DNA of 32,000 nucleotides from Halomicronema hongdechloris C2206 (GTDB lineage: Bacteria > Cyanobacteriota > Cyanobacteriia > Phormidesmidales > Phormidesmidaceae). This document shows positions 2,352-16,464 of this stretch, one piece after another. Where the stretch lies: assembly GCF_002075285.3 (NCBI RefSeq), contig NZ_CP021983.2, positions 1,860,001 through 1,892,000 of the forward strand, written 5' to 3'. Made by a program: the position numbers and the translations under genes. Position 1 is the first letter of the stretch. Each line of letters starts with the position of its first letter. The notes beneath the pieces are model-generated. The model was given only the letters and a program-made list of their open reading frames with translations, was not told where the DNA came from and made no database searches.

Positions 2352-2380
2352 ATAACTTACGCTTCAAGTTCTTTTGAAAA

Positions 2381-3379
2381 TCACCTTGACAGGTCGTTCA
2401 CAGGAACAGACTCTGGCTGAGGAGAACGAGCTTTTTGCATTACCCTAATAAACTCTCTCCCGTCAACAAACAGCTCTATTAGAAAACCAGATAAAGCAAA
2501 TACATACTTACTGGCAACCACGATCGCAACGACTGCAATTGCTGAAGCCTGTGTAACACCTAGTAACCCAGATAAGGCAATGATGGATGCTTCACCAAGC
2601 GCAATTCCCAAAAAAGACAGGGGGATAACATTAGAGAGCTGAGCTGTGAAAACAATAGACCATATGGAAAGTAGAGATACTGTGTTAACTTCTCGGAAGA
2701 GGAAGTAATAGCTAGAAGCGAAACACAAATGTCCGACAATAGAAAGCATTAAAGCATTTGCTATAGACTTGAAGCTCATCCTCTCTGCGATGGAAGAAAC
2801 GAAATTGAAAAGTTTCTTTCGATACCCCATCCATGCAATATAAATTATTAGAAGAAAAACGCAAAGAAGCAGTATCAGAATCCCCCAGGGGATTGAGATA
2901 TTTTGGTCTATTTTTGTTACAAGGACTGGAGATAGCGCTAGGGCTAGCATAATCATACTGATAAGCCCATAGACGCGATCTCCTACAATAGAAGCAGAAC
3001 ACAGATAAGGCTTTCTGGAGTATTCATAAAGTTTCATCAATCGAGTAGCTTCACTACTTAATGAAGATAGCATTGCTATTTCAACAAAATCAGCAAGAAG
3101 GTTGGTTCGAAAAAGAAAAATAACAGGAGAATATCCTACTTCAACAACCGCGCTGTACAGCTGAGACCAACGTGCCGCGTAAAACACTTTACTTACCAGA
3201 AGTAAAACACCAAAAATAATCAAGTTTAGTGATGATACTTTGATTAGTTTGTTAAATACTTCAGACCTCATAAAAAAATTAATAAGAACGAAGACTAGAA
3301 TCGATAAGCCAGTCCACTTGATTAGCTTGAGGTATTTGCTGTTTAATAAAATCTGTGCATTTTTGAGGAATCTAATCAT
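2381..3379 (-). CDS. Flippase-like membrane protein (LPG-synthase-TM/UPF0104-like), tentative
   Basis: 332 aa with about 8 hydrophobic segments. The basic N-terminus followed by LLLVSKVFYAARWSQLY resembles the flippase-like domain of MprF/AglD-type proteins that accompany GT2 enzymes. Assignment is from memory only. Confidence 0.45.
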   Translation of the reverse strand: MIRFLKNAQILLNSKYLKLIKWTGLSILVFVLINFFMRSEVFNKLIKVSSLNLIIFGVLLLVSKVFYAARWSQLYSAVVEVGYSPVIFLFRTNLLADFVEIAMLSSLSSEATRLMKLYEYSRKPYLCSASIVGDRVYGLISMIMLALALSPVLVTKIDQNISIPWGILILLLCVFLLIIYIAWMGYRKKLFNFVSSIAERMSFKSIANALMLSIVGHLCFASSYYFLFREVNTVSLLSIWSIVFTAQLSNVIPLSFLGIALGEASIIALSGLLGVTQASAIAVVAIVVASKYVFALSGFLIELFVDGREFIRVMQKARSPQPESVPVNDLSR

Positions 3380-3496
3380 ATTTAGACTGATGTCCCAAAG
3401 AAAAAAATCACCTTTTCTAGATTAATTAGCTTTCTATCAATTTCTAGAAGGTAATATCTAAAGGATATTTTAGTGTCAGCCATCTCTTTTTTCTGT

Positions 3497-4075
3497 TCAT
3501 TCTGTGAGAACTGAAGTTAATAAAGACAGTCCCGCATCATAAGCAATTTTCTCGTTTTCACAATATGATAGGTTTTTATCGAGCTTGTATGGCAAGCGCA
3601 ATAAAACTTCGCCAGAGTCAACGGAGGCGATAACCCTATGCAAGCACGCTTCTTGCTCAAAATCCTCCTCAACAAGAGCCTTATTAATAGCTCCTATACC
3701 TCCGTATGTTGGAATTCTGGCACAGTGTATGTTCAGAATATCTATGCCCGTACTTAAAACCTTACTGTTAATTATCAAGCCAGCTCTGAAAAGAACCATT
3801 TTGCTTGGCGAATTACTTGCAATTGTACGAAGAAGGTCTTTGTTTGAATTGATTCCTGGAAATGATTTAGGAGGAGAATTTCCGTCTCTTAAAAATTCAC
3901 AGCAAGCCATTTTTGATAACAATGAAAATTTAATTTTTTGTTTCCTTAAAAGATTCCAGATCCGAGATAAATTTGTTGACCTATCTACCAAGACTTGCAC
4001 ATTATCAGAAGTGTCTAAAAGCTGTATCGCCTTGTTTCCCAATTTGTCATTACCCACAACGACGAGAGTCTTCAT
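3497..4075 (-). CDS. Formyltransferase-family protein, N-terminal catalytic domain only (candidate sugar N-formyltransferase)
   Basis: LNIHCARIPTYGGIGAINKALVEEDFEQEACLHRVIASVDSGEVLL parallels the Fmt/GART core (N-[IV]-H...P-x-[WY]-[RG]-G...D-[ST]-G-[DE]-x-L). The ATG overlaps the stop of the upstream aminotransferase (ATGA at 4072-4075). Confidence 0.65.
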   Translation of the reverse strand: MKTLVVVGNDKLGNKAIQLLDTSDNVQVLVDRSTNLSRIWNLLRKQKIKFSLLSKMACCEFLRDGNSPPKSFPGINSNKDLLRTIASNSPSKMVLFRAGLIINSKVLSTGIDILNIHCARIPTYGGIGAINKALVEEDFEQEACLHRVIASVDSGEVLLRLPYKLDKNLSYCENEKIAYDAGLSLLTSVLTE

Positions 4076-5223
4076 TTTGACACAGTGAAATTGATAGTAG
4101 TTTTACTTGCCTGTTTCGAATTTGGATATGCACTTGGTTGGGTGCTATAAGACTTTAAACTTGGTATGCTGTATTGTATAAGCTCTCCAAGATGTAGTCC
4201 TTGTGAGGCAAATTCAGTGATCACTGATTGTCGATTTGGAACACGCACTACATAGTGTGAATAAGTTGCACCTTTGTATAAAGGTGGAAAAATCCATTGG
4301 TCTCTGCGCTCTAAATATTTATCATACCAGTGTGCTAGTCTTCGCCTATGTTCGATAATTTCTGGATATTTTTTGAGTTGTTCCGCCCCTACTGCCGCTT
4401 CGACATTCAGCATCTTATCGCAATAATCAGGTGGAAACCGGATCTGATCATCTAAATGGTAAGCCTTGGTCAAGCGGTTTAGAAGCGGTGTTTTTTCCTG
4501 GAGCCACCAAGTAAATCCATAAACTTGTTCATGGAAGGCGATGTAAACAGCCAGTAAATAGAGTCTACGCATCCAGGCTTTCCACCAGGTTGGTGTCTTG
4601 AAATGTTGATCGCGCCAGTATCTTACCTGATCAGCCAGGGCTTGATTCTGAAACGTCAACATTCCCCCGAAAATCGACGTGATAATTTTACTGATATTGA
4701 ACGCATAAACTGCCACATCTCCAGAAGTACCGACAAGACGGTCATTCCACTCTGCTCCGAAGGCATGACAACAATCTTGCATTAGCCAAACTTTATGCCC
4801 AAAGCGTTGTTCTGTCTCTGACACGATCGCCTCTAGCCGATCAAGATCCTGAGGATAACCAAAGGTGTGAGTTGCAATAATTCCTCGCGTTTTTTCATTG
4901 ATTGCAGCCGAAACTAGGTCCAAATCCATGTTGTAGTCATCGAGTTGGATATCGATAAATCGGGGACGATTACCACTCAAGGTCACCGCATGAGCGACAA
5001 CCGAACAGGTGTAAGCAGGCATAATAATTTCGGCATCCTTGAGACCGATCGCCTTAAAAAAAGCCCACTGAGCTGAACGTCCATAAGGAAACGCTACTGC
5101 GTCAACTGCCTGAAATGTCTGGGCGAACTCCCTTTCGAAGCGATCTACCGCCCCGTGACTTAGCCGAAATAAAGCGATAAATTCTTCCCAGCCTAAAGCA
5201 GGCTTAAATCGAGGAATCATCAA
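4072..5223 (-). CDS. DegT/DnrJ/EryC1/StrS-family PLP-dependent sugar aminotransferase
   Basis: 383 aa. It has DCCHAFG and the YAFNISKIITSIFGG lysine context typical of the family. ATGA overlaps occur at both ends (5220-5223 and 4072-4075). Confidence 0.8.
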   Translation of the reverse strand: MMIPRFKPALGWEEFIALFRLSHGAVDRFEREFAQTFQAVDAVAFPYGRSAQWAFFKAIGLKDAEIIMPAYTCSVVAHAVTLSGNRPRFIDIQLDDYNMDLDLVSAAINEKTRGIIATHTFGYPQDLDRLEAIVSETEQRFGHKVWLMQDCCHAFGAEWNDRLVGTSGDVAVYAFNISKIITSIFGGMLTFQNQALADQVRYWRDQHFKTPTWWKAWMRRLYLLAVYIAFHEQVYGFTWWLQEKTPLLNRLTKAYHLDDQIRFPPDYCDKMLNVEAAVGAEQLKKYPEIIEHRRRLAHWYDKYLERRDQWIFPPLYKGATYSHYVVRVPNRQSVITEFASQGLHLGELIQYSIPSLKSYSTQPSAYPNSKQASKTTINFTVSK

Positions 5224-6839
5224 GCGTCTCCAAGCTGTCCTGGTGGTTCTGAAATCTCATCCTGAATCTGCCAGTATCCCTGACTGGCCATATGGATTGG
5301 AACAAAGGAACCGAGAGTTGCTTGCACATGAAACCCGTTTTCCTGAGTCAGTTCATCACTCACGGTCAAGTCTCGACCCAAGTGAATAGTGCGGCGATTT
5401 CGTATCGGCCAAAGTTTGGTATTGGTAATCAACTGACGTACGAGTTGCTGCTTAATCCACTCACGTGAAAACTTGAAACGGAATAAGGTCAAGGACAGTA
5501 TCCGTAGGACTAGAAATTGCCAAGGCTGGGGGAGGACTTTTGGCATCGTGACAATAGGGGCCTCGATAGAGAGACTGTTTTCCTTCCACGTCGTGACTCG
5601 ATTCTCTTTTTGATAAGCCTGACTACTTCCCAATTGGCCTTTAGCATTCCGTACAACAACTCCTGCATTGAGAAGATGCAATTTCGTATCTTTGAAATGG
5701 TAGACGACGCCGCCCTTATGCGTAGAAATGATGGAGTAATGCTCTTTACCTCTATCGATGAGTAGTCCAGCTTCAGGGAAATATTGACGTTGTCGTTGTT
5801 TCTGTTCTGCTGGTAAGGTGTCATGGCTAAGCAACGCCTTATCATCAAACTTGTCCGATGTATGATTCAGCAAATTCTTCGCTAAAGTTGCCGCCCAACA
5901 ATAAGCATTAAACATCGGAATGAGATTAGGGTCATCCATTGCTGTGAGTGTAACGACGCGATTTTGAGCAATGCTCTGAACCATGAATCGGGATAAGGCC
6001 ATTGCTGCCGGTATGTCAGACGACAGCGCCAGGGGGCCTGCTGGATAGTAAAACCGAGTACAGCGGCTGCCATAGAGTCCACCAAACGACCCATCAGGAT
6101 GAGCAAAATACCTCAAAAAGCTCAGAGAATTTTGCAGGGGACGCTGCAAATCCCAAGCGGGGCGCAGTTTGTGGACATCTGCCAGATAGTAAGTACATAG
6201 GCTTTGATAACCAGGATCTGCCCCCTCATATTCTAGGAACCAACCTTCCTGAGACTGATGACACAAAATTCTTGTGAGAAGCTCCTCAGCACGCTGTTCT
6301 GCTTCTGGATCTCCCGTAAGGTCATGCCATCGAGCTAATGCAGCAACTGCAGTAGCGAGATGATTAGAGATAAGGGCGTGAGTTTCATCAGCGCTCTGCA
6401 AGTACTCAATCAGCGGTTGCACGATTCTCCGCCAGTTCTCCTGCTCAACAGCAGAAATCTCTTCGGACAGCAAGTCTATCGTGCACAGTAAATCGAAAGC
6501 GACTAAAGCTGTGACACAGAAAGACCCTTCATTCGGAAAGGCTTCCTCTACACTCCCGTCTCGTCGGGTCAGATATGCTGTTGCTTGGAAAAGCGCATCA
6601 ATGCGTCTGACAAAGTGTTCCTGAGTAGTTGGATAGGGCCATAGTTGATGACTCCACAATCGAGCGAAACCATGAGCCATGCCTTGAAAACTAGCATTAC
6701 CGAAGTCGATCAAGCCCCAAGCCCAATGATAGCGATCGCCCATCCCATAGCTTACACTTGTCGGGTCGGTATCTATTAACGCAAGAATTCTGGGCAGGAC
6801 TGAATATATCTGGAACAGGTACACCTCGTGGCTTTGCAT
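5220..6839 (-). CDS. Hypothetical protein, possibly an alpha/alpha-toroid enzyme (heparinase II/III-like?), function unknown
   Basis: 539-aa ORF translationally coupled to the aminotransferase. It has repeated helical-pair-like motifs (DRYHWAWGLIDFGN, EEAFPNEGSFCVTA, EGWFLEYEGADPGYQSL, HPDGSFGG) followed by a beta-rich C-terminal ~200 aa. The fold guess is weak. Confidence 0.6.
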   Translation of the reverse strand: MQSHEVYLFQIYSVLPRILALIDTDPTSVSYGMGDRYHWAWGLIDFGNASFQGMAHGFARLWSHQLWPYPTTQEHFVRRIDALFQATAYLTRRDGSVEEAFPNEGSFCVTALVAFDLLCTIDLLSEEISAVEQENWRRIVQPLIEYLQSADETHALISNHLATAVAALARWHDLTGDPEAEQRAEELLTRILCHQSQEGWFLEYEGADPGYQSLCTYYLADVHKLRPAWDLQRPLQNSLSFLRYFAHPDGSFGGLYGSRCTRFYYPAGPLALSSDIPAAMALSRFMVQSIAQNRVVTLTAMDDPNLIPMFNAYCWAATLAKNLLNHTSDKFDDKALLSHDTLPAEQKQRQRQYFPEAGLLIDRGKEHYSIISTHKGGVVYHFKDTKLHLLNAGVVVRNAKGQLGSSQAYQKENRVTTWKENSLSIEAPIVTMPKVLPQPWQFLVLRILSLTLFRFKFSREWIKQQLVRQLITNTKLWPIRNRRTIHLGRDLTVSDELTQENGFHVQATLGSFVPIHMASQGYWQIQDEISEPPGQLGDA

Positions 6840-6842
6840 TGA

Positions 6843-7625
6843 TCAGCTCTTTCTCTTTTGATAACGAAATCTGAGAATCAAACTGCAATCTAGCCAGCGA
6901 AGCCAGGGAAAGGGCCAATAAGTAACCTGTTGGCGTTGGAAAACGCGATCTAGATTAATCAAAATGTCGTCAGCAAAATTTGGATGTTCCCAACAGATAA
7001 TTTTGTCTGGATCAATCGTGGTGTTTTGTTTGAACCAACGGCGAGACGTCAGCAGTCTGCCCAGCCCCCAGGCTAATCCTCCTTCGGCAGGAATAGCTCC
7101 GATGAGGATTCCACCGGGTTTTAGCACGCGCCTCATTTCCATTAAGTAGGGACTGAGAGGATAGAGATGCTCCAGAGAGTAGAAGCTCACGATTGCATCG
7201 ACAGAAGCATCAGGCAACGGCAGGCGCTGACCTCGCTCTAACAATAATGTTTGATGTTTGACACCATGTTCCTGCAGGCGACGTTGGGCTTTCTCCATCA
7301 TGGCTGGATGAACATCTGCCAAAAGACAGGAGACTGGTTTTCCCTGCCAGTGAACAAGATGACGAATATCTCCAGCACCAATTTCTAGAACCATCTTTCC
7401 AAGCATCGGAAAGTCTTTCATCACTCGATAACCAGCGTCATTGACTTGGGTCCCGATGCCTTGACGCTGGTTGGCTATGTAAAAGTCACTGTATATTTGC
7501 TGCCATTTTTGCCAGCAAGGATCCGCCGTATTCGCGGTTAGTCCCCATCGTTGGCGATCGCCCCACAGAGGGATTTTTAACCAAAGAGGGAAGACTTGTC
7601 TTAATGTCCATTGAGCCATAAGCAC
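6843..7625 (-). CDS. Class I SAM-dependent methyltransferase
   Basis: VLEIGAGDIRH (motif I) and VDAIVSFYSLEHL...LKPGGILIG are typical of Methyltransf_11/25-type enzymes. Confidence 0.8.
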   Translation of the reverse strand: MLMAQWTLRQVFPLWLKIPLWGDRQRWGLTANTADPCWQKWQQIYSDFYIANQRQGIGTQVNDAGYRVMKDFPMLGKMVLEIGAGDIRHLVHWQGKPVSCLLADVHPAMMEKAQRRLQEHGVKHQTLLLERGQRLPLPDASVDAIVSFYSLEHLYPLSPYLMEMRRVLKPGGILIGAIPAEGGLAWGLGRLLTSRRWFKQNTTIDPDKIICWEHPNFADDILINLDRVFQRQQVTYWPFPWLRWLDCSLILRFRYQKRKS

Positions 7626-7713: not shown

Positions 7714-9018
7714 TTATTTAAGTTTACAACTATCATTAACATGACAGCTAAAGCGATATCTATTTTCGGCAATCAATAGATATAAGTACCGGGATACAAA
7801 AATAATCCCCGGTATCTTTGTGAGAATTGCTAACGGATATAGAACCGGCAAACGAGATGCGACTTGTTCAAATGCATCAGCTCCATAATATACCTCACCG
7901 TTTTCGTCTTTAAGCCCCATCTCTAATTCAAGTCTTCTCATATCTAAGGAATGGGGTACATCATCTGAAATCGGTACTGTTTCAAGCCGATGAAACCAAT
8001 CTAGTTTCTTAAGCCCAAAGACTGTTCGACTGCAAAATAGACATTGGTCATCATAGTAAATAGTCACTCTCCTCAAAAGACTATTCCAATCAAGACATAA
8101 GAATAACAATATAGAGCTACCAACAAAATTAATTCCTGCCGTCAGAAATACCAAACAATGCATCAATGACATTGACGCTACAAAGAACAAGCGATAACGA
8201 GGGAGGAAAACAATAGTGACGAAGAATAGTTCACCAATTAAAGCAACGACACCCGCTATGACTGATAAAGGATATGAAAGATGAAAGCTAGATACCGATG
8301 GAGAGACATAGCGGCTTGACAAGAAAATGGAATTCTCAATTCCCACCTCTGCAAGGTGGTCAAGATGTAATACGAACGGCCAATGAATACCAATATCGAT
8401 GATTTTATTTATACCGGCAGAAGTATAAAAGGAACCAATAACAAAGAAGAGTAGAAATATCGGCCAGTGATATCGAGAATTCCGTTGGGTAAGCGAGTAT
8501 CCGTTGGCTAATCCGTAAAAGCTTTCTCTAGGAGAAAGTGCTAAAATAAGTAAACTACATAATGCTATAGTACCTCCATCAATTTCGGCATTAGTAATTT
8601 GCACCATGCCAGTTAAGTGAGTACTAAAAAGAAAAGCTATTAGAGCACAAGCTTTCGGGTGCACACCAAGAATGCCAAAAATACAAGAAACTATAATAGC
8701 CACTTGAATTAAAAGTATGATGTTTTCATTTGGACGTGGGAAAAACTGGTAAATAAACTGGAAAGTGGTGAAGTACGACATGGGGACAGGAAAGGGCCAA
8801 GTGCCATAAACAAATCTTTCTGGATAAGAAAAACTCGATTCGGGAAGCAACCCGTAGATTGTGTAGTTCCTGCTTAAAAAGCGATAAAATAAATATGAAA
8901 AGCTAACGAATTGAAAAATGTAAAAATGTAAGGGTGGTGAGTCCTTGAAAACACCATAGAACCGAAATTCCTGGTAATTTTTTAGACTATCAATTAATTT
9001 CCTCTTAACTTTATTCAT
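7714..9018 (-). CDS. HTTM (vitamin-K-dependent gamma-carboxylase-like) membrane domain fused to a DCC-family (DUF393) thiol-disulfide oxidoreductase
   Basis: C-terminal IYYDDQCLFCSRTV...GEVYYGADAFEQVASRLP...YLYLLIAENRYRF matches the DCC D-x-x-C-x-x-C family. In the N-terminal ~310 aa, FYTSAGINKIIDIGIHW and LFFVASMSLMHCLVF resemble GGCX VYFIAGVKKLDADW and LFFVSYFHCMNSQLF. Confidence 0.7.
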   Translation of the reverse strand: MNKVKRKLIDSLKNYQEFRFYGVFKDSPPLHFYIFQFVSFSYLFYRFLSRNYTIYGLLPESSFSYPERFVYGTWPFPVPMSYFTTFQFIYQFFPRPNENIILLIQVAIIVSCIFGILGVHPKACALIAFLFSTHLTGMVQITNAEIDGGTIALCSLLILALSPRESFYGLANGYSLTQRNSRYHWPIFLLFFVIGSFYTSAGINKIIDIGIHWPFVLHLDHLAEVGIENSIFLSSRYVSPSVSSFHLSYPLSVIAGVVALIGELFFVTIVFLPRYRLFFVASMSLMHCLVFLTAGINFVGSSILLFLCLDWNSLLRRVTIYYDDQCLFCSRTVFGLKKLDWFHRLETVPISDDVPHSLDMRRLELEMGLKDENGEVYYGADAFEQVASRLPVLYPLAILTKIPGIIFVSRYLYLLIAENRYRFSCHVNDSCKLK

Positions 9019-9860
9019 TTTTCTATTGAGATTAATTCTTTTGCATCAACTATCTTTATGGTATTTTCTTCGTGATCAGCATAAACAACGATTTCCCACC
9101 ATGAAATTCGGCCAAGGAGGTTTGCATCTGGAGTTCTTGTATAGTCAATCTGCATATAAGGAGTATGCACTGGATAGGTGATCTCAAGTGGAAGTAAAAA
9201 AGCCCGACCATTTTTGCGAAGCGCTAAGTTTTTAGAAAAGATTTCGAGAAATGATCTCTGATAAGTTTTTTCTTGAAGTGATTCTAGATTAAAAACATAC
9301 TGTGGAAAAACAAGCCCAGATAGCTCAAAATTTGTAGGCCATATTTCTCCATTGGAATAGTGCAGAAACATGGCATTTCCTGTGATATATCCAGACTTCT
9401 GGAAAAACAATATGTTTTCATCTTTGATGGATTTGTACAAAAATGAATCTGAGGGGATTGCTCTTGAAGCTTCTGGGAGTTCTACTGCTTCTCTTATTTG
9501 AGAATGCTTGTTCTCATATGTCCAGCCTGCAATTCCTGAGAACCAAAAGCCCCAAAAAATCTTAGTCTGGAAAGTGATCAGGACAAAAAGAATTGCACCA
9601 AAAATCAGCTTTCTTGGATAAAAATTTTCGTCTTGAATAGAGACCCATTCTGCTAATCTTGTTAAAATTTGTTTGGTTTTGCGAGGGAAGAAAAATAGTA
9701 AAGCAACATACAAGATGTTCATGACTAGGTATTTTTGATACCACGAAGTATGTCGCGAACCTAAAGCTATCGACATCCCAATCATTAGAATCGCCAAAAA
9801 GCTTATGGCAATCAAAAGATAATATAGTCTTGTCGACAAAGAATGAATGTAGTCTGGCAT
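9015..9860 (-). CDS. Membrane-anchored hypothetical protein (3 TM plus a ~170-aa extracytoplasmic domain), partner of the HTTM-DCC gene
   Basis: 281-aa ORF whose stop overlaps the HTTM-DCC start (ATGA at 9015-9018). Hydrophobic segments include LYYLLIAISFLAILMIGMSIAL, VMNILYVALLFFF and LIFGAILFVLITF. No family recognised. Confidence 0.65.
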   Translation of the reverse strand: MPDYIHSLSTRLYYLLIAISFLAILMIGMSIALGSRHTSWYQKYLVMNILYVALLFFFPRKTKQILTRLAEWVSIQDENFYPRKLIFGAILFVLITFQTKIFWGFWFSGIAGWTYENKHSQIREAVELPEASRAIPSDSFLYKSIKDENILFFQKSGYITGNAMFLHYSNGEIWPTNFELSGLVFPQYVFNLESLQEKTYQRSFLEIFSKNLALRKNGRAFLLPLEITYPVHTPYMQIDYTRTPDANLLGRISWWEIVVYADHEENTIKIVDAKELISIEK

Positions 9861-9894: not shown

Positions 9895-11184
9895 TTACAA
9901 AACTGAGAAGAGAGATTGCAACCCTTTTGCCCAACCATAATCCTGGGTTAACGTATGAGGATGCCAGAGCAGGGCTACTTGTCCACGTACCATACGACAT
10001 TCCTCTACCCAATACTGTATGGTTGCCACACGTTCATTGTCCGTCATTAAGGCGTAGTCATAGAGGTGAGAATCCATCAACATCGAAGGTAAGGCGATGA
10101 TCTGATGGGGAGTAGATGCACTTCTATGCCAAGGCCGCCAAGCAATAGCACTAGCATTACGAAATCCGGAGCGATCGTTGAACATCAATGTCGTATCTCG
10201 TTGTAGGCCAGCCTTGGTTTGGGCTGACCAGGTAGTATCCCAGCTAAACCTTAACCAGTGCTGACGACAATCTGTAATATTGATTCCCGTGGTTAACTGA
10301 AGGTGTTTTCGCTGGGCTGTAATCCTATCCTTATCGTGCCAAGCGTCGAAGCTGGGATGAATTCCAACACTATACTTTGCAACTTGTAGCTTTTCAATGA
10401 AGGATTGCACTTTGGGGGCTGTTATTGAGTATGCGGGATCCATCAACCAGCGTTTCAGGGTTTTGGGAGCCGGGTCAGCATAAAAATGAAATATACTGCG
10501 AATCCCCCTCTGTTGTTCCATTTGCAGCAGGTCATCCAAAACCCACCAGTCTTCTTGGCTCAGCAGAAACCGTATCGCTTGTTGCGTTTTCGCGATCGCT
10601 GCCGTCAGATCTTTTCGTCCTAAGGCTCGTAGGGCATTGACCCCATTAAAGACTCCTTGCTTGAGTCGGATTGCCCAGGTCTTGCTGACAGCATCTATAT
10701 CATGGGTCATGATAAATTCTGGAGAAGGAAGCGCTCCAAACAAATGTTCAACATCCTCTCCCCTGATCTGAGCTACCCATTCACGCAAGAATAAGGCAAC
10801 GCGATTAACCCAAGCCCGTTCCCAAACCCGTTTATCCCAAGCTCTCAATCGAAAACTGTAAGAATGAATGGGTCCGTTGGCATCTTCCCAAGAGCGTTCA
10901 TGCCAGCATTCGAGTAACAAAAAGCTTGCCAACCACCAATCAACCTGTTCCCAGTGAATTCCGCAAGGACAGGTTTCCGCAGGTACTAATAATATCCCTC
11001 CTACCCCCCAAATACTGGCCCAGTCTGGTAAAGGTATTTCTCTCAGAGAGAGCGCTTCAGAAATAACAGGATTGGATACCGACAAAATTGGCAAATCGGC
11101 AATGATGTGTTTATTCTTGGGCCAATAACGTGAGAGCGATCGCAGCACATGATCCCTGACTACATCAGGCGCTGGTAACTGCAT
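9895..11184 (-). CDS. Hypothetical protein, possibly a divergent polysaccharide deacetylase (CE4-like)
   Basis: 429 aa. FIMTHDIDAV, GIHPSFDAWHD and VALLWHPHTL loosely recall NodB-type motifs (D-D, H-x-x-x-H, L-x-H). The functional call is weak. Confidence 0.4.
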   Translation of the reverse strand: MQLPAPDVVRDHVLRSLSRYWPKNKHIIADLPILSVSNPVISEALSLREIPLPDWASIWGVGGILLVPAETCPCGIHWEQVDWWLASFLLLECWHERSWEDANGPIHSYSFRLRAWDKRVWERAWVNRVALFLREWVAQIRGEDVEHLFGALPSPEFIMTHDIDAVSKTWAIRLKQGVFNGVNALRALGRKDLTAAIAKTQQAIRFLLSQEDWWVLDDLLQMEQQRGIRSIFHFYADPAPKTLKRWLMDPAYSITAPKVQSFIEKLQVAKYSVGIHPSFDAWHDKDRITAQRKHLQLTTGINITDCRQHWLRFSWDTTWSAQTKAGLQRDTTLMFNDRSGFRNASAIAWRPWHRSASTPHQIIALPSMLMDSHLYDYALMTDNERVATIQYWVEECRMVRGQVALLWHPHTLTQDYGWAKGLQSLFSVL

Positions 11185-11191: not shown

Positions 11192-13087
11192 TTAATTTGA
11201 ATCTATGAACTGTCGATGCCAGAGCTCTAGACAAAGCGCTCCCCAAAGTTGCCGTCCCCCTACACCCTGGTCTGACATCATTGCTTCTAAAGCCTCGGGA
11301 CGAAAAATTCCCCGATTTAGACTATGTTGAGAAAGTAGGGTGTCACCGACAAAATCCCGAACACATCCACCTTTCATCCATTCTTTTAAGGGAACTGGAA
11401 ATCCCATTTTGTCTTTACGATTCAGAATCTCTGGAGGCAATATATGACGAATCGCTTTCTTAAGAATATGTTTAGTACGTCCTCCCTTAAATTTCATCGG
11501 GGGAGGCATGGTCGTTATTAAGTCAACAATTCGTGTATCTAATAGCGGTACCCGTGATTCCAAAGACACAGCCATGCTGACTCTATCTTCAATCTGTAGC
11601 AAGGCAGGTAGCAACGTTTTTTGATCAAAGTGAGTCATCTTATTGATGTAAGACTGGGTATCTGGATGATTAAAAATGGCCTGGAAGTCAGCAAATAATG
11701 CTGTTCGGTCAAAGCCAGCTAATATCTCGGGATTCAGTAACCTCATCATCCCCTGGCTACGGTCAATCAGATGAAAGTAACGGGCATCCATAGGCTCAAA
11801 CAGCCCACGACTCCAAAAGTTGGCAAGTAATGGCTTATATTGTTTAAGAATGGATAAATGGGGAATAATTGACTCTAAAGTGACGACGTGTTTCCCTTCT
11901 TCTTGAGTTTCAAAAATTGCCCCCTTCAAGGCTTGCTCTAGATATCCCACCAGATATCTAGCATACCCGCCAAAAATCTCATCCCCTCCTTGTCCTCCAA
12001 GCACAACGGTCACCTGCTCCTTAGCCAGCTTACTCACCGCAAATTGTGGAAATAGTCCGGGACCTGCTAGCGGTTCATCAAGCATGTAAATCAGGTACGG
12101 CAAACTCTCTACAAACTGTTTAGCCGTGGGAACAGTCTCAAAGTATTGCCCTGATGAATTGGCTGAAACAATTCGCGCGTACTTAGATTCATCGTAGGCT
12201 AGCCCCTCTGCAAACCGTCCGTGAAACATTGGGAAAGAAGTTTCCAGATGTTGAGCTGCTAGAGTACAGATCAAACTGGAATCAATTCCACCTGAAAGGT
12301 ATCCTCCTAAGGGGACGTCAGAGCGGATTTGAAGTCGCAGCGTATCTTCTAATAAAGAACTCAGCCGATCAAGAAAGTAATCTTCCGTGTGGTACTGGTC
12401 AATTTGATAGTTGGTATCCCAATAAATGATCTCTTTTTTGATCTGATCACCTTGTCCCAGCAAATATGAACCAGGTCTTATTTTTTTGATTCCTTCAAAG
12501 AGGGTGTGATCGTCTAAACAGAATTGAAAACAAAGATACTGATGTAGAGCTTGATTGTCACGACTTGCAGCAATTTCAGGGTGTAAGAGTAATGCCTTAA
12601 TCTCTGAAGCGAATAAAAGCTCTTCTTGACAATGTGCGTAATAAAGTGGTTTGATGCCGAAGGGATCTCGAGCAGTAATCCACTTATTCTCTAAGCGATC
12701 ATGAAAGATGAAAGCAAACATGCCATTGAGTCGATCAATCGCTGCTGCTCCATCTCTAATTAATAATTTAAGGAGGACTTCTGTATCAGAAAATGTCTCG
12801 AATCGCTCTCCTTGCTGTATGAGCGACTGACGTAATTCTAAATAGTTATAAATTTCACCGTTAAAAATAAGTGAATATCGACCGTTCGAAGAGCTCATGG
12901 GTTGGGCCCCATGCTCTGCATCAATAATGGCTAAGCGTTGGTGCCCTAACAAAGCTTGACCAGGAATGTGCTTAACGCCTCTTCCATCAGGCCCGCGATG
13001 GAAAAGAGAAGCGAGCATACGGTCAATTAGGGGAAGTCGGTCTTCCAGACTTTGACCGGAGCTTAAAACAGCAACTAATCCGCACAT
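11192..13087 (-). CDS. Asparagine synthase (glutamine-hydrolysing) family amidotransferase, AsnB/WbpS-like
   Basis: The N-terminal MCGL provides the Cys2 nucleophile of class-II glutamine amidotransferases. LSGGIDSS is the PP-loop. Length is 631 aa. Confidence 0.9.
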   Translation of the reverse strand: MCGLVAVLSSGQSLEDRLPLIDRMLASLFHRGPDGRGVKHIPGQALLGHQRLAIIDAEHGAQPMSSSNGRYSLIFNGEIYNYLELRQSLIQQGERFETFSDTEVLLKLLIRDGAAAIDRLNGMFAFIFHDRLENKWITARDPFGIKPLYYAHCQEELLFASEIKALLLHPEIAASRDNQALHQYLCFQFCLDDHTLFEGIKKIRPGSYLLGQGDQIKKEIIYWDTNYQIDQYHTEDYFLDRLSSLLEDTLRLQIRSDVPLGGYLSGGIDSSLICTLAAQHLETSFPMFHGRFAEGLAYDESKYARIVSANSSGQYFETVPTAKQFVESLPYLIYMLDEPLAGPGLFPQFAVSKLAKEQVTVVLGGQGGDEIFGGYARYLVGYLEQALKGAIFETQEEGKHVVTLESIIPHLSILKQYKPLLANFWSRGLFEPMDARYFHLIDRSQGMMRLLNPEILAGFDRTALFADFQAIFNHPDTQSYINKMTHFDQKTLLPALLQIEDRVSMAVSLESRVPLLDTRIVDLITTMPPPMKFKGGRTKHILKKAIRHILPPEILNRKDKMGFPVPLKEWMKGGCVRDFVGDTLLSQHSLNRGIFRPEALEAMMSDQGVGGRQLWGALCLELWHRQFIDSN

Positions 13088-13108: not shown

Positions 13109-13912
13109 TCAAGGTCTGTCATTTGTAACTCTCCAATCCCGATGTTTTCTTTTGATCGCTGTCCGCCACCCTCCCCAGGGCCAGTGATACATGATTGTCA
13201 TCACCATGTATCCCAGCGTTGTAATACTGCCAATCATCTTGCTGGCACTCTGTTTCTGGTCGTAACGAAGAACAAACGGCACTTCTGAAAAAGTGGCTCC
13301 CAGCATTTTCAGTTTGATCAGCTTCTCTAAGGTTCCTGTGAATCCTAACCCTTTTAATTGCAGAAAATTATTGCCATAAAATGCGATCGCTTCTTTAATC
13401 AATTCAGCGCGATAGGCTCGAAACCCACAGGAGTATTCTCTGACACCTTGAATAGGAAAAAAGAACTTCATGAATAGATTGGCACACCAACTAATGAAGG
13501 CTCGGTAAGCGCTAACCCCCAGTTGCCCGCCTCCTGGTTGAAATCTAGAAGCAATCACCACATCGAAACCTTTATTCAACCTAGACACCAAATGAGGAAT
13601 GAAATGAGGTTCATGGGTATCATCACAATCTAGCCGAACAATTACATCTTCCGGGTGGGAAATTTCAGCAACATACTCAAATAAATCCCGTTCGGTTTCT
13701 CCTAAACCCCGATTGATTTTGTGGCAAAGAATATCTAAAGGAAGTAACTGGGCATATTCAGCTAAAAGCTCACGAGTTCTGTCTTGGCTACCATCATCAC
13801 AGACAATCACTTTGTATTCCCAGTTTGACTCTGCCATAACGTGATCAATTTTTTTTAGTAAACTTGGCAGAGACTTTTCTTCGTTGTAAGCTGGCAAAGT
13901 GATATATATCAA
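13109..13912 (-). CDS. GT2 glycosyltransferase, polyprenyl-phosphate sugar synthase type (GtrB/ArnC/DPM1-like)
   Basis: LPAYNEE, VIVCDDGSQD and RLDCDDTHEP motifs are present. The start is TTG at 13912, preceded by GGAGA (reverse complement of 13920-13924). Confidence 0.8.
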   Translation of the reverse strand: MIYITLPAYNEEKSLPSLLKKIDHVMAESNWEYKVIVCDDGSQDRTRELLAEYAQLLPLDILCHKINRGLGETERDLFEYVAEISHPEDVIVRLDCDDTHEPHFIPHLVSRLNKGFDVVIASRFQPGGGQLGVSAYRAFISWCANLFMKFFFPIQGVREYSCGFRAYRAELIKEAIAFYGNNFLQLKGLGFTGTLEKLIKLKMLGATFSEVPFVLRYDQKQSASKMIGSITTLGYMVMTIMYHWPWGGWRTAIKRKHRDWRVTNDRP

Positions 13913-14212: not shown

Positions 14213-15352
14213 TTATTCAAAGGCACAAAGTAGAGTCTGAGAAACTCTTCTTTGCTTATCGAATGTTAATTCTGGCCAAATTGGAAGGCTTAAAACTTGA
14301 TTGGCAATTCTATCACTAACTGGATTAGGTGGATATTGCCCTTGATAAATTGGCAATTTATCTTGTGGTACTGGATAGTACACCATAGAGCCGATTCCTT
14401 GTTGTCTTAAGTGCTGAGCTACCGCATCTCGTTTATCTTTTATCGTAAGAGTATATTGATGAAAAACATGACCTTCAATGCATTCTGGAGGGATAATTCC
14501 GGTTACATCAGAAAATAGTTGATTATAATGCTGAGCTACTTTTCGCCTAGCATTATTCCAAGTGTCAATATGCGGCAATTTAGCTCGAAGAATAGCAGCT
14601 TGAATTGTATCCAGACGAGAGTTGTAACCGACTGTTTCGTTGTAGTATTTCTTCTTAGCTCCATGGACTCTTAACATCCGGGCAGTTTCAGCTACAACGT
14701 CATCATCCGTAGCAATCAGCCCCCCGTCACCATAGGCCCCTAAATTCTTACTGGGGAAAAAACTATATGCACCTACATCTCCAATTGTGCCAGTCTGCTT
14801 ACCTGCGTAAGCATTAGACAAATTATTATTACCTTGAGCAGAAAAGTAACGAGCTCCAAAACTCTGAGCGCAATCTTCAACCACCTTTAAATCGTACTTT
14901 TGAGCCAGTAGCATAATCTTATCCATTTCTGCTGGGCGGCCATAGAGATGAACCGGTAGAATGGCTTTCGTTCGCTCGGTAATTCTTTCTTCGATTAGGT
15001 CTGGATTTATATTGAACGTGTGTTCGTCAATGTCTACAAAGATAGGCTTGGCCCCAACATGACTGATGGCTTCTGCAGTAGCAAAGAAGGTAAACGGTGT
15101 TGTAATAACTTCGTCTCCAGGTCCGACTCCCAGTGAGCGCATGCTAATAAATAATGCATCGGTGCCACTATTAACACCAATGGCATGATTAACGCCTAAG
15201 TATTGGGCCACTTCCTGCTCGAACTGCTTTACATCTGGTCCCATGATAAATTGACCAGATTCAACAACACGTAAAATGGCTGCTTGAATTGTTTCTTTTA
15301 GCTGTTCATACTGAGGTTTAAGATCTAGAATCGGAATCTCTAACTGGTCCAC
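14213..15352 (-). CDS. DegT-family aminotransferase, WbpE/WlbC-like (UDP-2-acetamido-3-oxo-glucuronate aminotransferase type)
   Basis: GVNSGTDAL, VEDCAQSFGA and YSFFPSKNLGAYGDGG (PLP lysine) are present. GTG start with AAGAGGA upstream. It sits next to WbpD/B/A-like genes. Confidence 0.85.
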   Translation of the reverse strand: MDQLEIPILDLKPQYEQLKETIQAAILRVVESGQFIMGPDVKQFEQEVAQYLGVNHAIGVNSGTDALFISMRSLGVGPGDEVITTPFTFFATAEAISHVGAKPIFVDIDEHTFNINPDLIEERITERTKAILPVHLYGRPAEMDKIMLLAQKYDLKVVEDCAQSFGARYFSAQGNNNLSNAYAGKQTGTIGDVGAYSFFPSKNLGAYGDGGLIATDDDVVAETARMLRVHGAKKKYYNETVGYNSRLDTIQAAILRAKLPHIDTWNNARRKVAQHYNQLFSDVTGIIPPECIEGHVFHQYTLTIKDKRDAVAQHLRQQGIGSMVYYPVPQDKLPIYQGQYPPNPVSDRIANQVLSLPIWPELTFDKQRRVSQTLLCAFE

Positions 15353-15419
15353 TCGATTATCCTCTTAACGTTTAATAGATACGGTAGATAGGTTGTCAAC
15401 CGATTATAATGACTTCTAA

Positions 15420-16001: not shown

Positions 16002-16017
16002 GGCCCAAACTCCAGAG

Positions 16018-16464
16018 TTATTGCCTTGTCTCAGGCAGAAACTGCTGATTCAAAATTTCATCTAATGAAAATGGACAAGTTTCTGGAAATGTGTCCCGGG
16101 CTAATCCTGTCTCCCGCTGGGCATCTCGCACGGCCTTGGGATAAATCATCGCCAGTGTGGGGTCCAATTCTCGCCGTAAGCTAGGACTATCAAGGATAAG
16201 CATCTCGATTTCATCTCGCTGGTGATCAATCGTCGCCAGCCAGCTTTTACTCTGTCTGTCGGGTTGGTACTGCCATTTGAGCAGATGCATGACTAAGAGC
16301 TGCAGACGACTGCGGAGCTGACGCAGGTCTCGTTTTCCCATACTGTCTAGCTCTTCAGCAATGTGTTCTGCGTCGATGTCGCTCAGCTGACCTGCTCGCA
16401 GTAAGGCAACATTGCGAGTTATCCAGGCATAAAAGTCAAGCTCATATTCAGTCTTTAAATCCAT
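16018..16464 (-). CDS. DUF29 family protein
   Basis: [46 protein letters not shown]...LLKWQYQP...FPETCPF is the DUF29 pattern common in cyanobacteria. I prefer the internal ATG at 16464 over the ORF-track start at 16485. Even so it overlaps the upstream gene by 17 nt. Confidence 0.8.

What the first reader, a model, noticed from the sequence alone, without database searches (positions are those of the whole stretch)
7714..9860. HTTM (vitamin-K-carboxylase-like) domain fused to a DCC oxidoreductase, with a coupled 3-TM partner, sitting as an AT-rich cassette inside a glycan operon
ORF 7714-9018 joins a ~310-aa polytopic domain to a DCC/DUF393 redox domain. The membrane domain has FYTSAGINKIIDIGIHW and LFFVASMSLMHCLVF, which I recognise from GGCX VYFIAGVKKLDADW (catalytic-Lys region) and LFFVSYFHCMNSQLF. 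The redox domain has YYDDQCLFCS and ...LIAENRYRF. Its ATG overlaps the stop of a 281-aa 3-TM protein of no recognisable family. The pair is much AT-richer than its flanks: G+C is 17/60 and 19/60 in lines 8401 and 8701, against 29/60 at 7201 and 27/60 at 10141. Bacterial HTTM proteins have essentially no defined substrates apart from SdpB-type peptide maturation. One hard-wired to a thiol-disulfide oxidoreductase in a sugar-tailoring operon suggests an undescribed redox- or quinone-driven modification of an exported glycan, lipid carrier or protein.
Basis: partly seen in the sequence, partly recalled or inferred. Interest (0 to 1): 0.72.

Follow-up and report, generated by a model that had tools for sequence, protein, structure and literature searches.

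The report
GGCX-like enzyme pair in glycan operon
A two-gene membrane module sits as a fixed part of a sugar-building gene cassette found in a cyanobacterium and at least three other bacterial phyla: it is a very divergent relative of the vitamin-K-dependent carboxylase fused to a small thiol-redox domain, plus a partner protein of no known family, and this hints at vitamin-K-type chemistry acting on a surface sugar, which has not been described.

Summary
On the minus strand, ORF 7714-9018 (434 aa) and ORF 9015-9860 (281 aa) overlap by ATGA. The quoted motifs and G+C counts are exact.

The C-terminal domain is a clear DCC1-like domain (Pfam E=1.2e-18, DxxCxxC). The N-terminal 316 aa fail the Pfam HTTM model, but three lines place them in the HTTM/GGCX superfamily:
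- A family profile reaches Pfam-positive HTTM proteins at E 1e-19 to 1e-12.
- The AlphaFold model's top 15 PDB hits are all human GGCX, and its top viral hit is the Yasminevirus vitamin-K epoxidase-desaturase.
- The catalytic pair K218/D263 is kept as invariant K205/E263.

The segment GGCX needs for carboxylation is absent in cis.

The partner is a new conserved family. It lies directly upstream of the fusion, overlapping or abutting its start, in all 11 contexts where upstream DNA was available.

The pair is not a separate AT-rich insertion. It is a syntenic member of a diamino-uronic-acid glycan cassette in Cyanobacteriota, Verrucomicrobiota and metagenomes, and the whole 18-kb cluster is a low-GC island.

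The CxxC is missing from 11 of 38 homologues, so the thiol chemistry looks auxiliary.

Best reading: a split, quinol-dependent GGCX-like enzyme that modifies a lipid-linked sugar. The reaction itself is unknown.

The parts
7714..9018 (-). Fusion gene, 434 aa: GGCX-like (HTTM-superfamily) membrane domain plus a DCC1-like domain. The true start is the ATG at 9018. The public gene model starts at M80.
8071..9018 (-). HTTM-superfamily membrane domain, aa 1-316, with about 8 TM helices. N-in/C-in topology is inferred from the positive-inside rule and from the GGCX topology.
   Evidence: No Pfam hit. Profile reaches Pfam-HTTM proteins. hhalign A2-A3 probability 100. Top PDB fold hits are all GGCX. 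Top viral hit is Yasminevirus VKED. Helices and loop charges.
8404..8406 (-). K205 codon. Invariant Lys, aligned to the GGCX catalytic base K218.
   Evidence: role of K218 from PMC12589487
8230..8232 (-). E263 codon. Invariant Glu, aligned to GGCX D263, the partner of K218. The giant-virus epoxidases also have Glu at this position.
   Evidence: PMC13486548
8158..8160 (-). H287 codon. Invariant His, aligned to GGCX H287 in the YFHCMN motif.
7744..8061 (-). DCC1-like thiol-disulfide oxidoreductase domain, aa 320-425. Inferred to be cytoplasmic.
   Evidence: Pfam PF04134, E=1.2e-18. Thioredoxin-fold hits. Topology inference.
8032..8043 (-). C326-L-F-C329 of the DxxCxxC motif.
   Evidence: Present in 27 of 38 homologues.
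9015..9860 (-). Partner gene, 281 aa: three TM helices plus a soluble domain of about 175 aa, inferred to be periplasmic. It is a new conserved family. Invariant residues include W72, W113, H167, H232, Y229, Y235 and Y240.
9015..9018 (-). ATGA overlap between the partner's stop codon and the fusion's start codon (translational coupling).
   Evidence: Overlapping or abutting gene ends are also seen in related loci.
9895..11184 (-). Syntenic neighbour, 429 aa. A distant relative of the VimE deacetylase; the L012 copy matches DUF7033.
11192..13087 (-). Syntenic neighbour: AsnB-like glutamine amidotransferase.
13109..13912 (-). Syntenic neighbour: GT2 closest to ArnC and other polyprenyl-phosphate sugar synthases.
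6843..7625 (-). Syntenic neighbour: SAM-dependent methyltransferase.
5220..6839 (-). Syntenic neighbour, 539 aa, no family hit here. Precomputed Pfam annotation of homologues lists Ulvan_lyase_N: faint in L001 and L012, unmarked in L006. My own hmmscan of the L006 copy found no family at E<=1.
4072..5223 (-). Syntenic neighbour: second DegT-type aminotransferase.
354..4075 (-). End of the cluster: formyltransferase (3497-4075), LPG_synthase_TM-like protein (2381-3379), and a 665-aa membrane protein (354-2351) whose L013 homologue matches GT87 (a GT-C family).
14213..18750 (-). Genes of Wbp type for a 2,3-diamino-uronic acid: nucleotide-sugar dehydrogenase, GFO-type 3-dehydrogenase, hexapeptide acetyltransferase and DegT aminotransferase, with a DUF29 gene inserted among them.

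Best explanation
SHOWN. Genes 9015-9860 and 7714-9018 form a translationally coupled two-gene module. It is conserved across at least four bacterial phyla. In most loci it is an internal, syntenic member of a cassette that builds and tailors a 2,3-diamino-uronic-acid-type sugar. The larger protein has three notable features:
- A membrane domain of the GGCX/HTTM superfamily that keeps the Lys/acid pair (K205/E263) which in GGCX deprotonates vitamin K hydroquinone.
- No counterpart of the GGCX segment needed for Glu carboxylation.
- A DCC1-like DxxCxxC domain at the position where GGCX has its cytosolic loop.

INFERRED.
1. The two proteins form one enzyme, a split GGCX-like complex. The partner's last TM helix and periplasmic domain would supply the substrate-binding part that is fused in GGCX and is provided by DUF5819 in other bacterial pairs.
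2. The HTTM domain binds the host's naphthoquinol (phylloquinol in the cyanobacterium, menaquinol elsewhere). It oxygenates it at the outer face of the cytoplasmic membrane. The resulting strong base or oxidant acts on a polyprenyl-phosphate-linked, or just-transferred, uronic-acid-derived sugar. Likely reactions are proton abstraction next to the C6 carboxyl/carboxamide or on an N-acyl substituent, followed by carboxylation, oxidation or epimerisation.
3. The cytoplasmic DCC domain helps return the oxidised quinone to the quinol using cytoplasmic thiols, in a VKOR-like role. This is auxiliary and has been lost in about 30% of homologues.

My probabilities:
- HTTM-superfamily homology: 0.9
- Obligate heteromer: 0.8
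- Role in the glycan pathway: 0.7
- Quinol-dependent chemistry: 0.5
- Carboxylation specifically: 0.15
For: Homology:
- The N-domain family profile finds 1089 proteins at E<=1e-3 among 1.84 billion.
- Of 52 distant hits, 23 match Pfam HTTM and 2 match LMF1. Examples: P0110 at E=5.7e-19 and HTTM 4.7e-7; P0123 and P0149.
- hhalign A2-A3: probability 100.
- hhalign A3-human GGCX 51-324: probability 88.9, E=2.4e-6.
- AF2 model pLDDT 89.2, pTM 0.89. PDB ranks 1-15 are all GGCX, probability 0.66-1.00.
- The best BFVD hit is Yasminevirus A0A5K0UBG6, the 'vitamin K epoxidase-desaturase' of PMC13486548.

Catalytic residues: K205=K218 and E263=D263 are invariant in 38 sequences.

Partner:
- A homologous gene lies directly upstream, overlapping or abutting the fusion gene, in all 11 non-redundant contexts with upstream DNA.
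- One copy is reduced to the last TM helix plus the soluble domain.
- Precedent: the DUF5819 + HTTM-DCC AF3 complex resembles whole GGCX.

Glycan link:
- The order GT2 - AsnB-like - VimE-like - partner - fusion - methyltransferase - 539-aa protein - DegT is kept in the window, L001, L010 (Opitutia), L012 and L014. It is rearranged in L013 and partial in L006 and L009.
- An ArnC-like GT2 and a GT87-like GT-C point to a polyprenyl-phosphate sugar intermediate.

Topology: 15 K/R in predicted inside loops against 4 outside. The partner's TM2-TM3 loop carries 6 K/R (sequences).

No room for a precursor-peptide gene: the flanking gaps are 34 and 88 bp.
Against: - The Pfam HTTM model does not match the protein or any of 37 homologues.
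- The family profile does not hit GGCX sequences in the PDB. Direct hhalign to GGCX finds only the 10-residue AGxxK motif.
- Foldseek E-values are weak (0.01-0.09), with TM-score 0.38-0.45.
- Several GGCX pocket residues are not kept: H160 is Asp here and N290 is Val.
- The partner shows no detectable similarity to DUF5819, to the GGCX C-terminal half, or to any PDB fold. Its model is only moderate, pLDDT 75.
- The complex itself was not modelled.
- The pair also occurs without the cassette: among TCA-cycle genes in Cytophagales, next to FkbH/ACP/AlgX-like genes, and with only a GT2 and a Wzy_C-like gene.
- No sugar known to me requires vitamin-K-type chemistry.
- If the DCC domain is cytoplasmic, it sits on the side opposite the presumed active-site opening.
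Confidence: 0.4

Rival explanations
1. Quinone-linked thiol oxidase or reductase relay, like DsbB or VKOR-thioredoxin. The HTTM domain only holds a quinone that re-oxidises or reduces the DCC CxxC. The CxxC then acts on a protein or small thiol, and the sugar genes are bystanders or clients.
For: A DCC1-like domain with DxxCxxC is fused in cis. From my own knowledge, not tested here, the HTTM relatives LMF1 and SdpB have been linked to maturation of disulfide-containing secreted proteins. LMF1 appears among the distant hits. In giant viruses VKOR is paired with GGCX-like domains.
Against: 11 of 38 homologues, plus the Opitutia copy, lack the CxxC but keep K205, E263 and H287. They are scattered through the tree, which implies repeated loss. 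One CxxC-less copy (L013) and the Opitutia copy still sit in the full cassette. The DCC domain is predicted to be cytoplasmic, where disulfide formation is unusual.
Confidence: 0.17
2. A peptide or protein carboxylase or maturase, like GGCX, MloH or SdpAB. Its substrate would be a protein or amino-acyl group encoded elsewhere, and the glycan neighbourhood would reflect co-transfer only.
For: All characterised HTTM enzymes act on peptide or amino-acyl substrates. The pair occurs alone, away from sugar genes, in L007. More distant partner+HTTM-DCC pairs lie in other settings: next to heme and cytochrome genes, and on a Halobaculum plasmid next to CARDB, sulfatase and beta-helix proteins.
Against: There is no small ORF or precursor gene next to the pair; the gaps are 34 and 88 bp. 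The position inside the cassette is conserved in 7 of 12 contexts across phyla. The GGCX 374-418 segment and the Glu-pocket His160 are missing.
Confidence: 0.12
3. A non-redox role. The HTTM domain would use its isoprenoid tunnel to bind, flip or hand over the polyprenyl-phosphate sugar, or to scaffold the pathway, without any quinone chemistry.
For: The GGCX pocket accommodates an isoprenyl tail. The cassette has an ArnC-like GT2 and a GT-C, so it needs lipid-linked sugar handling. The window itself has no Wzx-type flippase.
Against: Other loci carry a Wzx-type flippase as well as the pair. Invariant K205/E263/H287 at the GGCX catalytic positions argue for catalysis. The window already has an LPG_synthase_TM-like candidate flippase.
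Confidence: 0.1
4. One reading: the pair is a separately acquired AT-rich cassette dropped into a pre-existing glycan operon.
For: The pair is 36.8% G+C against 45-48% in the immediate flanks. GC3 is 0.33 against 0.45. The pair is also the least conserved part of the cassette between the window and Opitutia: 41% and 23% identity, against 45-65% for the neighbours.
Against: The same position and neighbours are found in five other loci, including another phylum. Several other cluster genes have equally low GC3, 0.31-0.38. The real compositional boundary lies at about 19-20.6 kb, around the whole cluster.
Confidence: 0.05

Closest known systems
DUF5819 protein + HTTM-DCC1-like fusion pairs of Firmicutes (Melghirimyces A0A1G6IAS5/A0A1G6IBF2; SdpA/SdpB type), described in bioRxiv 10.64898/2026.08.19.745780
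   Same: The architecture matches: a membrane protein of about 430-450 aa with an HTTM-type domain followed by a DCC1-like domain at about residues 320-430, and an adjacent smaller partner with a TM anchor and an extracytoplasmic domain. The conserved Lys is the same. The authors likewise propose a split GGCX-like complex.
   Different: Here the membrane domain is too divergent for the Pfam HTTM model. The partner is not DUF5819 and has three TM helices rather than one. The genomic setting is a glycan cassette, not a toxin or stand-alone pair. No function is known for either system.
[quoted passage not shown]
   Same: The fold of the transmembrane domain is the best PDB match. K218 corresponds to K205, D263 to E263 and H287 to H287. 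The inferred orientation is the same.
   Different: About 12-14% identity. No residues 374-418 and no lumenal propeptide-binding domains in cis. H160 is Asp and N290 is Val. A DCC domain replaces the cytosolic loop. No Gla-type substrate is evident.
Giant-virus vitamin K epoxidase (VKE/VKED) + VKOR modules (PMC13486548)
   Same: A truncated GGCX-like domain that keeps Lys and has Glu at the D263 position, lacks the carboxylation segment, and is combined with a thiol-dependent quinone-recycling protein. The Yasminevirus VKED is the top viral structural hit.
   Different: The viral domain is fused to a sterol or fatty-acid desaturase and pairs with VKOR. Here the fusion is to a DCC domain, the extra subunit is a new family, and the context is sugar tailoring rather than lipid desaturation.
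MloH (malonomycin biosynthesis), a bacterial vitamin-K-dependent carboxylase acting on a small-molecule aspartyl group
   Same: It is a precedent for an HTTM enzyme acting on a natural-product intermediate rather than a protein.
   Different: In MloH the HTTM part and a DUF5819-like part are fused. It sits in a PKS-NRPS cluster.
Wbp/Vim pathway (P. gingivalis linking sugar, PMC7468200) and the Arn pathway logic
   Same: The neighbours are of WbpA/B/E/D type, an AsnB/WbpS-like amidotransferase, a VimE-like protein, an ArnC-like GT2, a formyltransferase and a GT-C.
   Different: To my knowledge, neither pathway contains an HTTM-DCC protein or this partner. The VimE-like protein scores only 62 bits against a 440-bit cut-off, so it is not an equivalog.

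Membership tests
DCC1-like / DUF393 thiol-disulfide oxidoreductase (PF04134) | Match to the family HMM above the curated cut-off | tested here: met
   68.8 bits against a cut-off of 27.8, E=1.2e-18, aa 320-425, profile positions 1-112 of 113. 36 of 38 homologues match at E<=1.
DCC1-like / DUF393 thiol-disulfide oxidoreductase (PF04134) | N-terminal DxxCxxC motif | tested here: met
   D323-D-Q-C326-L-F-C329. Across the family, however, only 27 of 38 keep both Cys.
DCC1-like / DUF393 thiol-disulfide oxidoreductase (PF04134) | Thioredoxin-like fold | tested here: inconclusive
   The weak structural hits for this part are mycoredoxins, glutaredoxins and thioredoxins (E 0.3-8).
DCC1-like / DUF393 thiol-disulfide oxidoreductase (PF04134) | Thiol-disulfide exchange activity | not testable with these tools
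   Needs biochemistry.
HTTM domain (PF05090) / GGCX superfamily | Match to the Pfam HTTM HMM | tested here: not met
   No hit at E<=10 for the isolated N-domain. None of the 38 homologues hits at E<=1; one has LMF1 at E=0.19.
HTTM domain (PF05090) / GGCX superfamily | Significant profile similarity to proteins that do match the HTTM model | tested here: met
   The family profile hits P0110 (5.7e-19), P0123 (5.5e-16) and P0149 (1.1e-12) in a 1.84-billion-protein search. These match PF05090 at 4.7e-7, 1.5e-7 and 4.6e-9. 23 of 52 distant hits are HTTM-positive. hhalign probability 100. The bridge profile against GGCX gives probability 88.9.
HTTM domain (PF05090) / GGCX superfamily | Fold of the GGCX transmembrane domain | tested here: met
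   PDB ranks 1-15 are all GGCX, probability 0.66-1.00, TM-score 0.34-0.45 over 300-460 columns. The E-values are only 0.01-0.3. The best viral hit is a GGCX-like epoxidase-desaturase, E=2e-3.
HTTM domain (PF05090) / GGCX superfamily | Catalytic Lys (K218) and its acidic partner (D263) | tested here: met
   K205 and E263 are invariant in 38 sequences and align to K218 and D263 through the bridging profile.
Vitamin-K-dependent carboxylase proper (GGCX orthologue) | Segment 374-418 and the lumenal substrate-binding domains; Glu-pocket residues N159/H160/Y395 | tested here: not met
   The chain passes from the HTTM core (about aa 310) straight into the DCC domain. The H160 position is Asp147. The partner shows no detectable similarity to GGCX 325-729.
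Vitamin-K-dependent carboxylase proper (GGCX orthologue) | Quinol epoxidation coupled to carboxylation | not testable with these tools
   Needs an enzyme assay.
SdpAB-type maturation system | Partner belongs to SdpA/DUF5819 | tested here: not met
   No DUF5819 hit at E<=5 in any of 10 partner homologues.
SdpAB-type maturation system | Adjacent toxin or precursor gene | tested here: not met
   The neighbours are sugar-pathway enzymes. The gaps of 34 and 88 bp leave no room for a precursor gene.
Wbp/Vim-type diamino-uronic acid pathway (context) | WbpA/B/E/D-type enzymes, amidotransferase and VimE deacetylase | tested here: inconclusive
   Domain-level matches exist for all, but none reaches an equivalog cut-off. 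VimE scores 62 bits against 440.

The most novel reading that the evidence does not exclude
This would be the first GGCX-type, naphthoquinol- and O2-dependent enzyme that acts on a carbohydrate. A split membrane complex (HTTM-DCC plus a new periplasmic subunit) would use vitamin-K 'base amplification' at the outer face of the cytoplasmic membrane to carboxylate, or otherwise functionalise, a C-H position of a polyprenyl-phosphate-linked diamino-uronic acid. The result would be a surface-sugar modification not yet chemically described, with a built-in thiol-driven quinone recycling domain.
Probability: 0.2. Interest if true: 0.85.

Novelty: new variant of a known kind. Interest (0 to 1): 0.62.

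Why it matters
Vitamin-K-dependent chemistry is known for protein Glu carboxylation in animals, for one bacterial natural product (MloH), and now putatively for viral lipid remodelling. Bacterial HTTM proteins are numerous and almost all lack a known function.

This subfamily offers an unusually tractable handle. It sits at a fixed place in a conserved sugar-tailoring cassette whose other steps can largely be predicted. The 'missing' chemical step can therefore be read out by comparing the sugar made with and without the pair. It could also explain an unassigned modification of 2,3-diamino-uronic acids in O-antigens or exopolysaccharides, and it would give the DCC/DUF393 family a concrete role.

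On the practical side, the public gene model is truncated by 79 codons, which hides both TM1 and the translational coupling. The family is also invisible to Pfam HTTM, so it is currently annotated only as a 'DCC family oxidoreductase'.

Tried and rejected
- Direct Pfam and NCBIfam scans for HTTM/VKG_Carbox on the whole protein, on the isolated N-domain at E<=10, and on all 38 homologues: nothing.
- Family profile against PDB sequences: only noise, a voltage-sensor phosphatase at E=0.14.
- Direct hhalign of the family against GGCX 51-324: only a 10-column AGxxK match, probability 0.3. A bridging alignment of distant hits was needed.
- The bridging profile against PDB sequences by hmmsearch: no hit.
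- Partner searches, all negative:
  - Pfam, including DUF5819, at E<=5.
  - PDB fold search.
  - hhalign against GGCX 325-729.
  - hhalign against the 159-aa partner of a distant HTTM-DCC fusion.
  - hhalign against the archaeal partner.
  The tempting likeness of the partner's 'GFWFxGIxGWTY' to the GGCX TM9 linker is therefore only an idea.
- The genome-contig scan returned only 3 loci because a single peptide pattern was used. Context came mainly from the look-up of encoding contigs.
- PDB sequence searches for the 539-aa and 429-aa neighbours: nothing useful.
- Plasmid search: only DCC-only hits and one distant archaeal fusion.
- Promoter and terminator scan of 7400-10200: fewer sites than in shuffles, and nothing separating the pair from its neighbours.
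- Literature: no paper in the library links HTTM or GGCX-like proteins to glycan clusters.
No multimer prediction was available.

Full report
**1. What is in the sequence**

The window is from Halomicronema hongdechloris C2206 (Cyanobacteriota, Nodosilineales). The two proteins are 100% identical to records from that genome.

On the minus strand, ORF 9015-9860 (281 aa) is followed by ORF 7714-9018 (434 aa). The first gene's TGA and the second gene's ATG overlap as ATGA at 9015-9018. The four G+C counts are exact.

Both genes lie in a long co-directional run of genes. The gaps to their neighbours are 34 and 88 bp. Promoter- and terminator-like sites are no more frequent than in shuffled sequence.

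The public gene model for the larger protein is 355 aa and starts at M80. The homologue alignment shows that residues 1-79 are conserved, including invariant H31, Q36, Y42, S49, R50 and G56. The 434-aa form and the coupling to the upstream gene are therefore the correct reading.

**2. The C-terminal domain**

Residues 320-425 match Pfam DCC1-like over the whole model: 68.8 bits against a 27.8-bit cut-off, E=1.2e-18. They carry the DxxCxxC motif as D323...C326..C329. The structural hits for this part are weak matches to thioredoxin-fold proteins. Membership is not in doubt.

**3. The membrane domain**

- Neither the protein, nor its isolated N-domain at E<=10, nor any of 37 homologues matches Pfam HTTM.
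- A family profile does not find GGCX among PDB sequences.
- Direct hhalign to human GGCX 51-324 aligns only the ten residues around AGxxK.

Indirect evidence, however, is consistent and strong enough.

(a) A profile of the N-domain (30 sequences, A2) was searched against 1.84 billion representatives. It gave 53 hits at E<=1e-30 (the family itself) and 1089 at E<=1e-3. Of 52 distant hits at E between 1e-19 and 1e-10, 23 match Pfam HTTM, 2 match LMF1 and 6 carry a DCC domain (individual examples).

(b) hhalign of the family against these distant hits gives probability 100 over 271 columns. The distant set against human GGCX gives probability 88.9, E=2.4e-6, over 230 columns.

(c) The AlphaFold2 model is confident, with pLDDT 89.2 and pTM 0.89. 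Its 15 best PDB matches are all human GGCX: probability 0.66-1.00, TM-score 0.34-0.45 normalised to the whole 434 aa, E 0.01-0.3. Its best match among viral models is Yasminevirus A0A5K0UBG6 at E=2e-3. That is the 'vitamin K epoxidase-desaturase' of a 2026 PNAS paper.

I therefore file the domain in the HTTM/GGCX superfamily as a divergent subfamily that the Pfam model misses.

**4. Which catalytic features are kept**

Chaining the two hhalign alignments with GGCX numbering gives this mapping:

| Window residue | GGCX residue | Note |
|---|---|---|
| K205 | K218 | catalytic base that deprotonates the hydroquinone |
| E263 | D263 | partner of K218; D263E keeps 25% activity and the viral epoxidases have Glu |
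| H287 | H287 | |
| V290 | N290 | the viral proteins have Ile |
| D147 | H160 | part of the Glu pocket |

K205, E263 and H287 are invariant in all 38 aligned homologues.

GGCX residues 374-418, reported as essential for carboxylation, and the lumenal domains have no counterpart. After the HTTM core (about aa 310) the chain runs straight into the DCC domain.

So the quinol-activating half of the GGCX site is conserved. The substrate half is absent or is supplied in trans.

**5. The partner**

The 281-aa protein has no Pfam or NCBIfam match, and DUF5819 (SdpA) does not match any of 10 homologues at E<=5. It is nevertheless a real family. Homologues of 23-39% identity (80% in the close relative L001) lie immediately upstream of the fusion gene, overlapping or abutting its start, in all 11 non-redundant contexts that include upstream DNA. 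The family has 16 invariant positions beyond the start Met, including H167, H232 and several Tyr and Trp.

One homologue (L003) consists only of the last TM helix plus the soluble domain. That is the layout reported for DUF5819 proteins.

The AF2 model is moderate (pLDDT 75) and matches nothing in the PDB. hhalign to GGCX 325-729 is negative (that sequence was verified).

Charge distribution points to an N-in topology with the C-terminal domain outside: 6 K/R in the TM2-TM3 loop. For the fusion, 15 K/R in predicted inside loops against 4 outside, together with homology to the GGCX topology, places K205 near the outer face and the DCC domain in the cytoplasm. These topologies are inferences.

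**6. Genomic context**

The window's genes 354-18750 form one cluster:
- a nucleotide-sugar dehydrogenase, a GFO-type 3-dehydrogenase, a DegT aminotransferase and a hexapeptide acetyltransferase (the classical route to a UDP-2,3-diacetamido-uronic acid);
- a GT2 closest to ArnC and polyprenyl-phosphate sugar synthases;
- an AsnB-like amidotransferase;
- a distant VimE-like protein;
- the pair;
- a methyltransferase;
- a 539-aa protein;
- a second DegT;
- a formyltransferase;
- an LPG_synthase_TM-like protein;
- a 665-aa membrane protein whose homologue matches GT87 (GT-C).

A reciprocal BLAST table shows the block GT2 - AsnB-like - VimE-like - partner - fusion - methyltransferase - 539-aa - DegT in the same order in the window, L001/L002 (a close relative), L010 (Opitutia, Verrucomicrobiota), L012 and L014 (metagenomes). 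It is rearranged in L013 and partial in L006 and L009 (Bdellovibrionales).

In four other loci the pair stands without these neighbours:
- with a GT2 and a Wzy_C-like gene (L003);
- on a short contig (L005);
- next to FkbH, ACP and AlgX-like genes (L011);
- between 2-oxoglutarate dehydrogenase and isocitrate dehydrogenase genes in a Cytophagales genome (L007/L008).

The association with sugar tailoring is thus strong but not absolute, and the two genes behave as a self-contained unit.

**7. The 'AT-rich cassette'**

The pair is indeed lower in G+C than its immediate flanks. GC3, however, is 0.33 for the pair and 0.31-0.38 for six other genes of the same cluster. The flanking genes at 0.45 are just the upper end of a mosaic.

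The real discontinuity lies at about 19-20.6 kb. Cluster genes have GC3 0.31-0.50, while the genes beyond have 0.62-0.79. The whole cluster therefore looks like a horizontally acquired island, which fits its presence in unrelated phyla. The pair is part of it, not an insertion into it.

**8. The DCC cysteines**

Only 27 of 38 homologues keep CxxC. The 11 without it, and the Opitutia copy, retain the domain, including the conserved DENGE.YYG.DAFEQ stretch, and retain K205/E263/H287. They are scattered across a neighbour-joining tree, which implies several independent losses.

Two CxxC-less copies still sit in the full cassette. Thiol-disulfide chemistry is therefore unlikely to be the core function. 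I read it as an accessory.

**9. Mechanism**

The best-supported reading is a split GGCX-like enzyme. The HTTM domain activates a naphthoquinol with O2 through K205/E263. The partner provides the extracytoplasmic substrate-binding part. The substrate is the cassette's uronic-acid-derived sugar, probably while it is linked to polyprenyl phosphate; an ArnC-like GT2 plus a GT-C imply such an intermediate. The DCC domain on the cytoplasmic face helps regenerate the quinol, in the way VKOR does in the vitamin K cycle and in the viral VKOR + epoxidase modules.

What is shown: homology, conserved residues, coupling and synteny. What is inferred: complex formation, topology, quinone use, the nature of the substrate and the reaction.

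The chemistry that vitamin K enables is abstraction of a weakly acidic proton. That suggests carboxylation, oxidation or epimerisation next to the C6 carboxyl/carboxamide or on an N-acyl group. I give carboxylation only about 0.15.

Rivals, detailed in the structured fields:
- a quinone-linked thiol relay;
- a peptide or protein maturase whose glycan neighbourhood is incidental;
- a non-redox lipid-linked-sugar handler.

**10. Comparison with what is known, and novelty**

The architecture 'small partner + HTTM-DCC fusion' is not new. A 2026 preprint models a DUF5819 protein with a 447-aa HTTM-DCC1-like protein and notes the resemblance to whole GGCX and to MloH.

I also found the same two-gene layout in two further places:
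- a more distant fusion next to heme and cytochrome genes;
- on weaker evidence (tblastn E=1e-5 over aa 193-429; hhalign probability only 1%), a Halobaculum plasmid.

Three things are new here:
- a subfamily invisible to the HTTM model;
- a partner family with no relatives I could detect;
- a fixed position in a multi-phylum glycan cassette.

No paper in the searchable library connects GGCX-like proteins with glycan biosynthesis. I rate it a new variant of a known kind. There is a real but unproven chance, about 0.2, that it represents a new class of sugar modification.

Noticed in passing
window 7714-9018 (-): The public gene model (355 aa) starts at M80. The conserved N-terminal 79 residues (TM1 and six invariant positions) and the ATGA coupling to the upstream gene are missing from the annotation.
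   Followed up: yes
window 354-18750 versus 20600-32000: The whole glycan cluster is a low-GC island: G+C 0.43 and GC3 0.31-0.50, next to genes with G+C 0.58 and GC3 0.62-0.79. The boundary lies at about 19-20.6 kb. This fits horizontal acquisition of the entire cassette.
   Followed up: partly
window 16018-16485 (-), 20145-20654 (-), 20644-21372 (-): A DUF29 gene sits inside the Wbp-like operon between the GFO and acetyltransferase genes, and a DUF29 gene is also called at the start of L001. A second ORF that looks DUF29-like by eye (not scanned) and a Uma2-family gene lie at the island border.
   Followed up: no
window 354-2351, 2381-3379, 13109-13912 (-): The 665-aa membrane protein is 32% identical to an L013 protein that matches GT87 (a GT-C family). 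Together with an ArnC-like GT2 and an LPG_synthase_TM-like protein, this suggests an Arn-like route through a polyprenyl-monophosphate sugar rather than, or in addition to, a Wzx/Wzy O-unit.
   Followed up: partly
L001 3089-3931 and 12941-13567 versus window 13088-13108 and 3497-4075: The cassette varies between close relatives. L001 has an extra methyltransferase between the GT2 and the AsnB-like gene, and an Acetyltransf_1 where the window has a formyltransferase. This is the usual kind of diversification of surface-sugar decorations.
   Followed up: no
window 5220-6839 (-) and homologues (L006 5304-6992, L010 7984-9561, L012 8280-9854, L013, L014): A 517-563-aa protein without family assignment co-occurs with the pair in 7 of 12 contexts. 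Precomputed annotation of some homologues lists Ulvan_lyase_N, but my own hmmscan found nothing at E<=1. It may be a uronate-acting (alpha/alpha)-toroid enzyme. It has no signal peptide by eye.
   Followed up: partly
L015 3525-5335; L017 3707-5744: More distant HTTM-like-DCC fusions also have a small upstream gene that overlaps their start by 4 or 11 bp. One is next to heme-biosynthesis and cytochrome genes in a metagenome. One is on a Halobaculum (archaeal) plasmid next to CARDB, sulfatase and beta-helix proteins. Their partners are not detectably related to the window's partner.
   Followed up: partly
alignment A1 (homologues of 7714-9018): In a subclade (P0027, P0030, P0032-P0035, P0037, P0038) the Trp of the K-x7-W motif (W213) is replaced by Phe (for example GFPF or QFPL in place of HWPF), while K205 is kept.
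   Followed up: no
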